Shown here in pieces: positions 9,563 to 37,584 of a stretch of 64,000 nt of DNA. Both the position numbers and the translations under genes were made by a program. Below the pieces are notes generated by a model. That model searched no databases. It saw only the letters and a list, made by a program, of their open reading frames with translations, and was not told the DNA's origin. This stretch comes from Octopus vulgaris (lineage: Eukaryota): NCBI GenBank assembly GCA_951406725.2, contig OX597819.1:46252001-46316000 (forward strand). Direction: 5' to 3'. Position 1 is the stretch's first letter, and each line of letters opens with the position of its first letter.

Positions 9563-10254
9563 TTAAGAGTGTGACATGCTTTGGCACAGCTGTCTCGGCA
9601 CAGCCGTCTTGACACAGCCGTCTTGGCACAGCCGTCTTGGCACAGCCGTCTTAGCACAGCCGTATTGGCACAGCCGTCTTGGCACAGCCGTTTTGGCACA
9701 GCCGTCTTGGCACAGCCGTCTTGGCACAGCCGTCTTAGCACAGCCGTATTGGCACAGCCGTCTTGGCACAGCCGTCTTGGCACAGCCGTCTTGGCACAGC
9801 CGTCTTGGCACAGCCGTCTTGGCACAGCCGTCTTGGCACAGCCGTCTTGGCACAGCCGTCTTGGCACAGCCGTCTTGGCACAGCCGTCTTGGAACAGCCG
9901 TCTTGGCACATGGATTATCCTATATGATTAGGCATCGATATAGTTGAGCAAGTATTGTATGCGATGTTCTAATTTATTAAGAGTGTGACATGCTTTGGCA
10001 CAGCTGTCTCGGCACAGCCGTCTTGACACAGCCGTCTTGGCACAGCCGTCTTGGCACAGCCGTCTTAGCACAGCCGTATTGGCACAGCCGTCTTGGCACA
10101 GCCGTCTTGGCACAGCCGTCTTGGCACAGCCGTCTTGGCACAGCCGTCTTGGCACAGCCGTCTTGGAACAGCCGTCTTGGCACATGGATTATCCTATATG
10201 ATTAGGCATCGATATAGTTGAGCAAGTATTGTATGCGATGTTCTAATTTATTAA
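9563..10254. repeat. Two tandem cassettes, each with a 14-bp minisatellite (TTGGCACAGCCGTC; 23 and 13 units) and a shared ~70-bp tail
   Basis: Arrays at 9581-9910 and 9995-10184 with the same leader gagtgtgacatgct, the same variant units and the same tail. Confidence 0.95.
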
Positions 10255-35506: not shown

Positions 35507-36221
35507 CATACATATATATATATATTTATAATTAATTAATAAGGGTGAGAGAATTAGATACTAATTTAATAGTATATTTATTCCACACCAAGTGGCCTAG
35601 TGCTACGAGAAACCTGGATTATTATAATATTTTATAACATATTATAATATTTTTACAAAATAAATATAAGAGAGTGGTCACTATATTGATCACCCTAGCA
35701 CCAGTTAATCCAAAAGGTTTCAACCACGAAAAATACATGTTTAATTCATTAATAGCGAAACAATTGTCCCAAAATAATCTGTATTTTTGTTATTTTTTAT
35801 TTGCCCTGTCCGTGTGAGCTAACAGTCGTACTGGCTTTCATGGGAAACATGTATTTTTCGTGGTTGAAACCTTTTGGATTAACTGGTGCTAGGGTGATCA
35901 ATATAGTGACCACTCTCTTATATTTATTTTGTGAAAATATTATAATATGTTATAAAATATTATAATAATCCAGGTTTCTCGTAGCACTAGGCCACTTGGT
36001 GTGGAATAAATATACTATTAAATTAGTATCTAATTCTCTCACCCTTATTAATTAATTATAATTATGCTGCATTTATTTCTAAATGCTGTATTTGTTTTCC
36101 GTGAGAGTTTGGCGCGCTGTTGGTTGGGGCATTTGAATTATAACGTCCGATGTAATCAATTGAACCGCACGCGTATTTATCGTTATGGTAAAATCTGGCG
36201 TGTGATTGAGTGGATTTCATC

Positions 36222-36315
36222 CAGATAGTCTTGGCTGAAGAGCTACAAATGGATTATTGTAAGTAATATTACATTTAATTCATTAATAGCGAAACAATTG
36301 TCCCAAAATAATCTG
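36222..36315 (+). ncRNA. Type I minimal hammerhead ribozyme, copy 1
   Basis: Stem I cagatagtcttgg/ccaaaataatctg, CTGAAGA at 36235, stem II gcta/tagc with long extension, GAAAC-AATT-GTC; predicted cleavage after 36302. Confidence 0.88.
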
Positions 36316-36759
36316 TATTTTTGTTATTTTTTATTTGCCCTGTCCGTGTGAGCTAACAGTCGTACTGGCTTTCATGGGAAACATGTATTTTTCGTGGTTG
36401 AAACCTTTTGGATTAACTGGTGCTAGGGTGATCAATATAGTGACCACTCTCTTATATTTATATATTTTGTGAAAATATTATAATATGTTATAAAATATTA
36501 TAATAATCCAGGTTTCTCGTAGCACTAGGCCACTTGGTGTGGAATAAATATACTATTAAATTAGTATCTAATTCTCTCACCCTTATTAATTAATTATAAT
36601 TATGCTGCATTTATTTCTAAATGCTGTATTTGTTTTCCGTGAGAGTTTGGCGCGCTGTTGGTTGGGGCATTTGAATTATAACGTCCGATGTAATCAATTG
36701 AACCGCACGCGTATTTATCGTTATGGTAAAATCTGGCGTGTGATTGAGTGGATTTCATC

Positions 36760-36853
36760 CAGATAGTCTTGGCTGAAGAGCTACAAATGGATTATTGTAA
36801 GTAATATTACATTTAATTCATTAATAGCGAAACAATTGTCCCAAAATAATCTG
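36760..36853 (+). ncRNA. Type I minimal hammerhead ribozyme, copy 2
   Basis: Identical to copy 1; predicted cleavage after 36840. Confidence 0.88.
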
Positions 36854-37293
36854 TATTTTTGTTATTTTTTATTTGCCCTGTCCGTGTGAGCTAACAGTCG
36901 TACTGGCTTTCATGGGAAACATGTATTTTTCGTGGTTGAAACCTTTTGGATTAACTGGTGCTAGGGTGATCAATATAGTGACCACTCTCTTATATTTATT
37001 TTGTGAAAATATTATAATATGTTATAAAATATTATAATAATCCAGGTTTCTCGTAGCACTAGGCCACTTGGTGTGGAATAAATATACTATTAAATTAGTA
37101 TCTAATTCTCTCACCCTTATTAATTAATTATAATTATGCTGCATTTATTTCTAAATGCTGTATTTGTTTTCCGTGAGAGTTTGGCGCGCTGTTGGTTGGG
37201 GCATTTGAATTATAACGTCCGATGTAATCAATTGAACCGCACGCGTATTTATCGTTATGGTAAAATCTGGCGTGTGATTGAGTGGATTTCATC

Positions 37294-37387
37294 CAGATAG
37301 TCTTGGCTGAAGAGCTACAAATGGATTATTGTAAGTAATATTACATTTAATTCATTAATAGCGAAACAATTGTCCCAAAATAATCTG
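37294..37387 (+). ncRNA. Type I minimal hammerhead ribozyme, copy 3
   Basis: Identical to copy 1; predicted cleavage after 37374. Confidence 0.88.
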
Positions 37388-37584
37388 TATTTTTGTTATT
37401 TTTTATTTGCCCTGTCCGTGTGAGCTAACAGTCGTACTGGCTTTCATGGGAAACATGTATTTTTCGTGGTTGAAACCTTTTGGATTAACTGGTGCTAGGG
37501 TGATCAATATAGTGACCACTCTCTTATATTTATTATATTATATATATATTTATATATATTTATATATATATATATATATAAATG

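What the first reader, a model, noticed from the sequence alone, without database searches (positions are those of the whole stretch)
36193..36315. Ribozyme design suggests dimer-dependent and switchable cleavage
Seen: stem III is only GAAAC-AATT-GTC with a palindromic AATT loop. Stem II is extended (gcta/tagc, aatggatta/taattcatt, tgtaa/ttaca). Upstream atctgg (36193) can pair with ccagat and compete with distal stem I. Known: minimal PLE hammerheads with palindromic stem III loops cleave efficiently as dimers. Inference: adjacent units activate each other, so only multimeric transcripts are processed efficiently.
Basis: partly seen in the sequence, partly recalled or inferred. Interest (0 to 1): 0.75.

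Follow-up and report, generated by a model that had tools for sequence, protein, structure and literature searches.

The report
Pair-cutting hammerhead in Penelope-type retrozyme
This stretch has the full sequence pattern of a self-cutting hammerhead RNA and sits in a short jumping repeat with about two thousand genomic copies; it likely cuts best when two copies pair up, a mechanism already described, while the proposed upstream off-switch is predicted not to form.

Summary
36222-36315 is a type I hammerhead in a 534-bp tandem unit with 2,050 exact core copies genome-wide. Insertions are head-to-head arms in (TA)n ending at two fixed sites, the Penelope 'tail' signature, so this is a non-LTR retrozyme or non-autonomous Penelope-like element. 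Dimer support: stem III barely forms alone (P 0.035). Across other families the loop changes sequence but stays self-complementary, including the inner pair (93 of 100 listed copies; 10 of 10 clusters not forced by the pattern). This mechanism is published. 'Only multimers' is not shown: 2-bp-stem invertebrate hammerheads cleave as monomers in vitro (PMC7229834), and the energy model does not rank the double fold above one active monomer. The ATCTGG/CCAGAT switch is not supported. With full upstream context a longer, covarying hairpin (36149-36221) replaces it (P 0.00 in 33 of 36 copies; covariation 0/500 against 400/500 shuffles). No cleavage or expression was shown here. The scan noted dimer-type hammerheads before in other genomes.

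The parts
35522..35742 (-). Inverted arm of the insertion (unit positions about 77-297), ending at fixed end site S2 next to (TA)n
35740..37534 (+). Direct arm: partial unit, three full units (534, 538, 534 nt between predicted cut sites after 35768, 36302, 36840, 37374) and a partial unit ending at fixed end site S1 next to (TA)n
36149..36221 (+). Long upstream hairpin (predicted, supported by covariation); it takes the strand that the short ATCTGG hairpin would need and leaves CAGAT free for distal stem I
36193..36198 (+).
36222..36234 (+). Hammerhead stem I, 5' strand (distal CAGAT; proximal 36228-36234 with a C.A mismatch at 36230)
36235..36241 (+). Catalytic core CUGAAGA
   Evidence: sequence
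36242..36290 (+). Extended stem II (4 bp, CA/AA internal loop, 9 bp, 5 bp, 6-nt loop)
36291..36302 (+). GAA, palindromic ACAAUUGU (2-bp stem III plus AAUU loop) and C17; predicted cut after 36302
36303..36315 (+). Hammerhead stem I, 3' strand
36285..36328 (+). Predicted downstream hairpin that would sequester GAAAC and the cut site once transcribed; conserved but without compensation
36760..36853 (+). Second complete hammerhead copy (possible cis partner)
37294..37387 (+). Third complete hammerhead copy

Best explanation
The motif is a type I hammerhead ribozyme sequence in a 534-bp non-coding tandem repeat whose insertions carry Penelope-type ends; it likely cleaves most efficiently as a double hammerhead in which two ACAAUUGU palindromes form one 8-bp stem III. 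A transcript through the array would be cut at each unit, and the released monomer is predicted to be ligated into a structured circle. A Penelope-type reverse transcriptase supplied in trans would copy it from two fixed start sites into (TA)n targets. Shown: motif, repeat structure, copy number, covariation of stems and loops, fixed ends. Inferred: transcription, cleavage, dimer advantage, circle, mobiliser. The short ATCTGG/CCAGAT hairpin is predicted not to act as a switch, because a longer conserved hairpin occupies that strand.
For: Core complete and helices covary (66 against 16.3 cells, 0/500). 2,050 exact copies. Stem III P=0.035 in the monomer. The intermolecular double fold is 11.2 kcal/mol below two monomer folds at 37 C, and in two-unit transcripts it is 4.0-6.7 kcal/mol below two monomer folds (5 of 5). 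Loop III is self-complementary in 93 of the first 100 of 9,015 hits with a non-A second loop base (hand count; 76 by Watson-Crick pairs only). All 10 sequence clusters from that search have complementary inner and outer pairs, with inner TA, CG, GC and TG. Non-complementary N-A-V-N loops give only 82 hits, control 10, against at least 2,050 AATT copies. All 15 insertions with both arms resolved, of 35 examined, have one S1 end and one S2 end, the PLE tail signature (PMC11167929, PMC8557442, PMC3846280). Units differ by 1.37 substitutions within arrays and 8.38 between them (80 units, 20 arrays). The circle folds at -195 against -153+-7 kcal/mol, 0 of 40 shuffles. Sister hammerhead families lie beside GIY-YIG ORF pieces. 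Long hairpin: 45 against 19.3 cells, 0/500; short hairpin: 4 against 4.7, 400/500.
Against: No cleavage or expression was measured. In the two-unit energy model one active monomer costs less than the double fold in 4 of 5 transcripts and about the same in the window. In L075 the double fold cost 35 kcal/mol; I attribute this to its inversion junction but did not test that. The active monomer costs only 2.8 kcal/mol in the circle. Coral and mussel monomers cleave well (PMC7229834), and 8 of 9 Xenopus dimers did not cleave in vitro (bioRxiv 2026.07.22.740005). One family has a non-palindromic TGAC/TGAT loop (8 of the first 100 hits). Copies and clusters are related, so counts overstate independent events. 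No autonomous partner of this family was found.
Confidence: 0.68

Rival explanations
1. Monomer-competent hammerhead: the 2-bp stem III suffices, helped by a tertiary contact between the internal loops of stems I and II or by a protein; dimerisation is only a modest or vestigial aid.
For: Monomers of coral and mussel retrozymes cleave at 0.8 and 0.1 per min (PMC7229834). The Anolis PLE hammerhead is protein-assisted (PMC11167929). Internal loops sit after 7 bp in stem I and 4 bp in stem II in this clade, close to the canonical 6/4 spacing (PMC4209133). One active monomer is energetically as cheap as the double fold.
Against: It does not explain why the inner loop pair covaries (TA, CG, GC, TG, AT) across families; two adjacent loop bases cannot pair within one hairpin.
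Confidence: 0.2
2. One reading: upstream ATCTGG pairs with CCAGAT, strips distal stem I and holds the ribozyme off until a partner or refolding releases it.
For: The hairpin is -10.4 kcal/mol and more stable than most shuffles in 5 of 6 representatives when about 45 nt upstream are folded. 89% of its cells can pair across 34 copies. TCT is conserved and unpaired in the long-hairpin model.
Against: P=0.00 in 33 of 36 copies with 112 nt upstream and in 3 of 3 full units. No covariation above shuffles. It would leave the 7-bp proximal stem I intact (P 0.97 in L152b with the hairpin formed). An apparent triple covariation at offset -13 came from a one-base register shift between subfamilies.
Confidence: 0.08
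3. Co-transcriptional time window: the ribozyme can fold only briefly, until a downstream U-rich strand (36320-36328) is made and pairs with the GAAAC region; this, not dimer need, protects the mature RNA.
For: P(stem I) falls from 0.63-0.99 at +13 nt to 0.07-0.29 at +45 nt in 3 of 3 full units. The blocker keeps 9 or 10 of 10 pairs in 41 of 48 copies.
Against: None of the 5 copies with the AAUAGC to AACAGC change compensates in the blocker. In the circle MFE stem I is formed. Prediction only.
Confidence: 0.15
4. This genomic copy is inert: the family was ribozyme-driven, but the insertion is never transcribed and has no effect.
For: No annotation or long coding frame is tied to it. Most TE copies are silent (established knowledge).
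Against: Units are intact and near-identical, and retrozymes are abundantly expressed in other animals (PMC7229834). This rival concerns the locus and is compatible with the main mechanism for the family.
Confidence: 0.5

Closest known systems
Animal non-LTR retrozymes (Cervera and de la Pena 2020, PMC7229834, parts 2-4 of 6 read; Li, Clavereau and Pollet bioRxiv 10.64898/2026.07.22.740005, parts 1-3 of 5 read)
   Same: Non-coding AT-rich tandem units, one type I hammerhead per unit, 2-bp stem III with tetraloop, dispersed arrays, predicted structured circle, proposed PLE mobilisation.
   Different: Unit of 534 nt (150-450 in the 2020 paper; within the 51-972 range of the 2026 preprint). Stem II is 18 bp and lacks the canonical terminal loop 2. 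RNA circles were not shown here.
Hammerheads in pLTRs of metazoan Penelope-like elements (PMC4209133, passages read; Lunse et al. 2017 seen only as cited in PMC6765202, paper not held)
   Same: Type I, palindromic positions 15.2-16.2 and loop 3, long helix II, dimer cleavage proposed or shown.
   Different: Not a minimal motif (helix III present); no ORF between repeats; no autonomous partner identified.
Newt satellite 2 and axolotl Amex1/Amex2 hammerheads, ASBVd(+) double hammerheads (PMC7229834; PMC6466107 passages; Forster 1988 not seen, only cited)
   Same: Short stem III with a palindromic loop; the double-hammerhead fold raises cleavage. Amex2 has the same 2 bp plus tetraloop design (22% cleavage in 1 h as monomer, better as dimer).
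   Different: Those keep canonical loop 1-loop 2 contacts and short stem II.
PLE insertion structure with tail and two RT start sites (PMC11167929 parts 1-2 of 4; PMC8557442 and PMC3846280 passages)
   Same: Head-to-head inverted arms, two alternative 3' ends, AT-rich or (TA)n targets.
   Different: The tail here is about 130 nt, against 30-40 nt reported, and both ends share a CAC..CTTAT motif.

Membership tests
Type I hammerhead ribozyme | Core CUGANGA / GAAA / UH with G10.1-C11.1 | tested here: met
   CUGAAGA 36235, G36242-C36290, GAAA 36291, GUC 36300-36302
Type I hammerhead ribozyme | Three helices, open at stem I, supported by covariation | tested here: met
   97% of cells paired, 66 double changes against 16.3, 0/500; stem III itself is invariant in this clade
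Type I hammerhead ribozyme | Match to an Rfam hammerhead model | tested here: not met
   No match at gathering score or E<=10; the long stem II is the likely cause (inference)
Type I hammerhead ribozyme | Site-specific self-cleavage | not testable with these tools
   needs an in vitro assay
Double-hammerhead (dimer) type | Stem III of 2 bp or fewer with a self-complementary loop | tested here: met
   ACAAUUGU; P(stem III)=0.035; loops covary genome-wide
Double-hammerhead (dimer) type | Dimer fold favoured over monomer fold | tested here: inconclusive
   Better than two monomers in 5 of 5, not better than one monomer in 4 of 5; 11 kcal/mol gain for isolated motifs
Double-hammerhead (dimer) type | Cleavage faster in dimer than monomer | not testable with these tools
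   needs kinetics
Non-LTR retrozyme | At least two consecutive tandem units each with a complete type I hammerhead | tested here: met
   three complete copies in the window; arrays of up to 13 in one arm
Non-LTR retrozyme | Non-coding, no LTR/PBS/PPT, GC below 50%, dispersed | tested here: met
   no ORF of 170 aa or more in the array; GC about 31%; hits on many contigs; PBS and PPT were not searched separately
Non-LTR retrozyme | Expressed as unit-length linear and circular RNA | tested here: inconclusive
   contigs only; they cannot show ends, strand or circles
Non-autonomous Penelope-like element | Head-to-head inverted arms with a tail at one end, microsatellite target | tested here: met
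   15 of 15 resolved two-arm insertions have S1+S2 ends in TA-rich flanks
Non-autonomous Penelope-like element | Homology to the pLTR of an autonomous PLE | tested here: inconclusive
   no ORF-linked copy among the loci fetched; only a 44-nt core match among 80 other-family loci; the genome was not searched exhaustively
Conformationally switched ribozyme (ATCTGG competitor) | Alternative helix forms in native context and is kept by compensation | tested here: not met

The most novel reading that the evidence does not exclude
The palindromic stem III is also a template-dimerisation signal, like a retroviral kissing loop. It would hold two element RNAs together so that a dimeric Penelope reverse transcriptase primes one at site S1 and the other at site S2 on opposite strands of the target. 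This would explain why all 15 resolved two-arm insertions have one end of each kind, why either arm can be the long multi-unit one, and why arm truncation points do not sit at the other arm's start site. It would also explain why palindromes persist in families with mostly solo copies.
Probability: 0.1. Interest if true: 0.72.

Novelty: new member of a known kind. Interest (0 to 1): 0.3.

Why it matters
As it stands this is one more animal retrozyme family using a mechanism first described for newt and viroid RNAs. Its value is practical. It is a young, high-copy, intact substrate with natural compensatory variants (five subfamilies). It comes with a genome-wide set of loop palindromes (12 of the 16 possible perfect tetraloop palindromes seen) that allows orthogonal-loop tests of dimer cleavage. 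Its two reverse-transcription end sites lie about 130 nt apart and are easy to tell apart, which helps in studying how Penelope elements form head-to-head insertions. If the template-pairing reading were true, it would tie the ribozyme's palindrome to the still unresolved PLE integration mechanism.

Tried and rejected
Rfam scans found no hammerhead. Expression: no RNA holder listed. Four runs guessed to be RNA gave contigs over all 30 bins and across the cut site, one with a loose end resembling a cDNA template-switch adaptor (identity recalled), but contigs cannot show ends, strand or circles; not used as evidence. Runs of four other organism labels hold close copies (one 563-nt contig with 13 differences), too similar for covariation. 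The short ATCTGG hairpin looked supported with 52 nt upstream and was rejected after extending the context. A second competitor (TTGGGGCA with TGTCCCAA) appeared when folding began 112 nt upstream; in full units the best partner of position +3 was stem I in 11 of 12 folds. An intramolecular third base pair was considered for AATT/GATT/GATC but does not explain inner-pair covariation. Classical one-template twin priming was considered: arm starts are scattered, and about 2 of 21 lie within 15 nt of the other arm's end site (read by eye, no test run). Autonomous partner: tblastn hits near L011, L147 and L210 lie outside the insertion ends. Dropped rows: of 27 clusters, 17 had inner AT forced or favoured by my patterns and were left out of the inner-pair test. 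L155 was left out of the offset counts. 48 of 73 copies were aligned in A1 and 36 in A2. Sister-family units L197-L199 were missed by the pattern. Loci are top BLAST hits or first-listed matches, not a random sample. Lunse et al. 2017 was not held. No supplements were read; those of PMC4209133 and PMC7229834 may show long-stem-II motifs or this family. Searches for a prior description listed none for this family, which is weak evidence.

Full report
Observation. Together they form a type I hammerhead: stem I 36222-36234 with 36303-36315, core CUGAAGA 36235-36241, an 18-bp interrupted stem II 36242-36290, GAA, a 2-bp stem III closed by AAUU, and a predicted cut after C36302. ACAAUUGU is a full 8-nt palindrome. 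Rfam does not detect it, probably because of the long stem II (inference). In 48 of 73 collected copies of this family and four sister subfamilies, the helices are 97% paired, with 66 double-sided changes against 16.3+-4.4 in shuffles. The proximal stem I has 7 positions and is contiguous in the relatives; the window variant has one C.A mismatch.

What it sits in. The motif lies in a 534-538 bp unit repeated three full times (35769-37374), preceded by an inverted 221-bp piece and flanked by (TA)n. The genome is 2.8 Gb. A BLAST search gave 198 matches from 40 of 834 candidate places scored, and an exact 33-mer occurs 2,050 times, control 0. Insertions are head-to-head arms. In all 15 of 35 loci where both ends were resolved, one arm ends about 160 nt and the other about 292 nt after the cut site. 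This is the Penelope-like 'tail' signature, tied to two internal RT start sites in PMC11167929 and described in PMC8557442 and PMC3846280, though the tail here is about 130 nt. Units within an array differ by 1.37 substitutions, opposite arms by 1.10, and different arrays by 8.38 (80 units, 20 arrays). That fits copying from one unit variant (a circle) or from a homogeneous master array. The unit folded as a circle is far more stable than shuffles (-195 against -153+-7 kcal/mol, 0 of 40). No ORF of 170 aa or more overlaps the array, and no autonomous partner was found. Other hammerhead families in the genome lie beside GIY-YIG ORF pieces. This meets the working definition of an animal non-LTR retrozyme (PMC7229834), which a 2026 preprint argues are non-autonomous PLEs (10.64898/2026.07.22.740005).

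Dimer claim. In the isolated monomer stem III forms with P=0.035. Two motifs in the double-hammerhead fold are 11.2 kcal/mol below two monomer folds at 37 C. The strongest evidence is comparative. Among 9,015 core matches whose second loop base is not A (control 32), 93 of the first 100 listed have a self-complementary loop and 7 do not (hand count). The 10 sequence clusters from that search all have complementary outer and inner pairs, with inner TA x3, CG x3, GC x3 and TG x1. Loops with A followed by a non-T give 82 hits, control 10. Adjacent loop bases cannot pair within one hairpin, so covariation of the inner pair points to pairing between two strands (inference). This is a published idea (PMC4209133, PMC6765202, PMC6466107; Lunse 2017 and Forster 1988 seen only as citations).

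Limits of the dimer claim. In two-unit transcripts the double fold beats two monomers in 5 of 5 cases, but one active monomer is cheaper in 4 of 5. L075 gave a 35 kcal/mol penalty for the double fold, probably from its inversion junction (untested). Coral and mussel monomers cleave at 0.8 and 0.1 per min, and the axolotl motif with the same 2 bp plus tetraloop cleaves 22% in an hour alone and better as a dimer (PMC7229834). One family has a non-palindromic loop. Palindromes persist where sampled copies have no partner within 3 kb (26 of 30 and 25 of 30), so the partner may be in trans or in rare tandem masters; 23 of 32 loci of this family are tandem. Dimer-assisted cleavage is likely (about 0.7). 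Strict dependence on adjacent units is less so (about 0.4).

Switch claim. Folding only 36185-36330 does give the ATCTGG/CCAGAT hairpin and loses the hammerhead, and the hairpin is stable in 5 of 6 representatives. This depends on where the fold starts. With 112 nt upstream its probability is 0.00 in 33 of 36 copies, and in 3 of 3 full units, because a 30-pair hairpin at 36149-36221 forms instead. The long hairpin has 45 double-change cells against 19.3+-2.7 (0/500); the short one has 4 against 4.7 (400/500). The shuffle control ignores relatedness, but it was applied alike to both. The long hairpin leaves CAGAT free for distal stem I, as in the circle MFE. Even when formed, the short hairpin would leave the proximal stem I intact in relatives. 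ATCTG stays unpaired and partly conserved in an internal loop, so some role is not excluded. A different gate is predicted: stem I probability drops from 0.63-0.99 to 0.07-0.29 as the downstream U-rich strand emerges. However, 0 of 5 informative copies compensate in that strand.

Mechanism. Shown: motif, tandem and inverted anatomy, copy number, covariation of hammerhead stems, long hairpin and loop palindromes, and fixed ends. Inferred: transcription of arrays; cleavage, likely best through paired hammerheads, which in cis would cut both ends of a unit and leave its ends held by stem I; ligation by a host enzyme as shown for other retrozymes (PMC7229834); and PLE-driven reverse transcription from two sites into (TA)n. 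A lone circle lacking a partner would be partly protected from re-cutting, as proposed in PMC4209133. No cleavage or expression was demonstrated here.

Novelty and verdict. This is a new member of a known kind. Two paper searches listed no description of this family, and no supplements were read. The scan has noted dimer-type PLE hammerheads in other genomes, nothing near this place or by sequence, and unrelated permuted hammerheads in this genome. The boldest reading not excluded is that the palindrome also pairs two template RNAs for twin-primed insertion (probability 0.1). Interest 0.3.

Noticed in passing
window 35522-35545 and 37517-37534; loci L067-L075 and others: Every resolved two-arm insertion (15 of 15 among 35 loci) has one arm ending about 160 nt and the other about 292 nt after the cut site. 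The tail is about 130 nt, against 30-40 nt reported for PLEs, and both ends share a CAC..CTTAT motif. The same two ends appear in sister subfamilies.
   Followed up: partly
L067 and L012 flanks: Probable 8-10 bp target-site duplications where the target is not pure (TA)n (read by eye); ambiguous in the window.
   Followed up: no
L006, L013, L024, L039, L055, L070, L071: Both arms start at nearly the same unit position (within about 20 nt), giving near-palindromic inversion junctions, as described for rotifer PLEs (PMC3846280).
   Followed up: no
L144-L146 (G000:C1:21143774 and others): A second tandem family with 353-bp spacing, short canonical stem II and a TCGA stem III loop.
   Followed up: partly
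L142 (G000:C1:12597815): A hammerhead-like family with a non-palindromic TGAC/TGAT loop, 8 of the first 100 hits; an exception to the palindrome rule.
   Followed up: no
G000 genome-wide: Long stem II is the norm here: 9,015 + 2,557 + 231 hits with a 30-60 nt (35-55) spacer (patterns may overlap slightly) against 1,009 with 4-29 nt.
   Followed up: partly
L061:4270-4932: An intronless dCMP-deaminase-like ORF (PF00383, E 1e-27) lies between two copies of a 2.5-kb direct repeat that each carry a family-B hammerhead; possibly a retrocopy.
   Followed up: no
L062, L063, L064: Hammerhead families B and C lie beside broken GIY-YIG and RT-like ORF pieces, likely truncated autonomous PLEs (the RT reading rests on recalled motifs, no Pfam hit).
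   Followed up: partly
window 36230 and 36148: The youngest variant carries changes that break one stem I pair and the closing pair of the long hairpin relative to older family members, yet it amplified recently.
   Followed up: no
window 9581-10184: A 14-bp minisatellite of about 44 copies.
   Followed up: no
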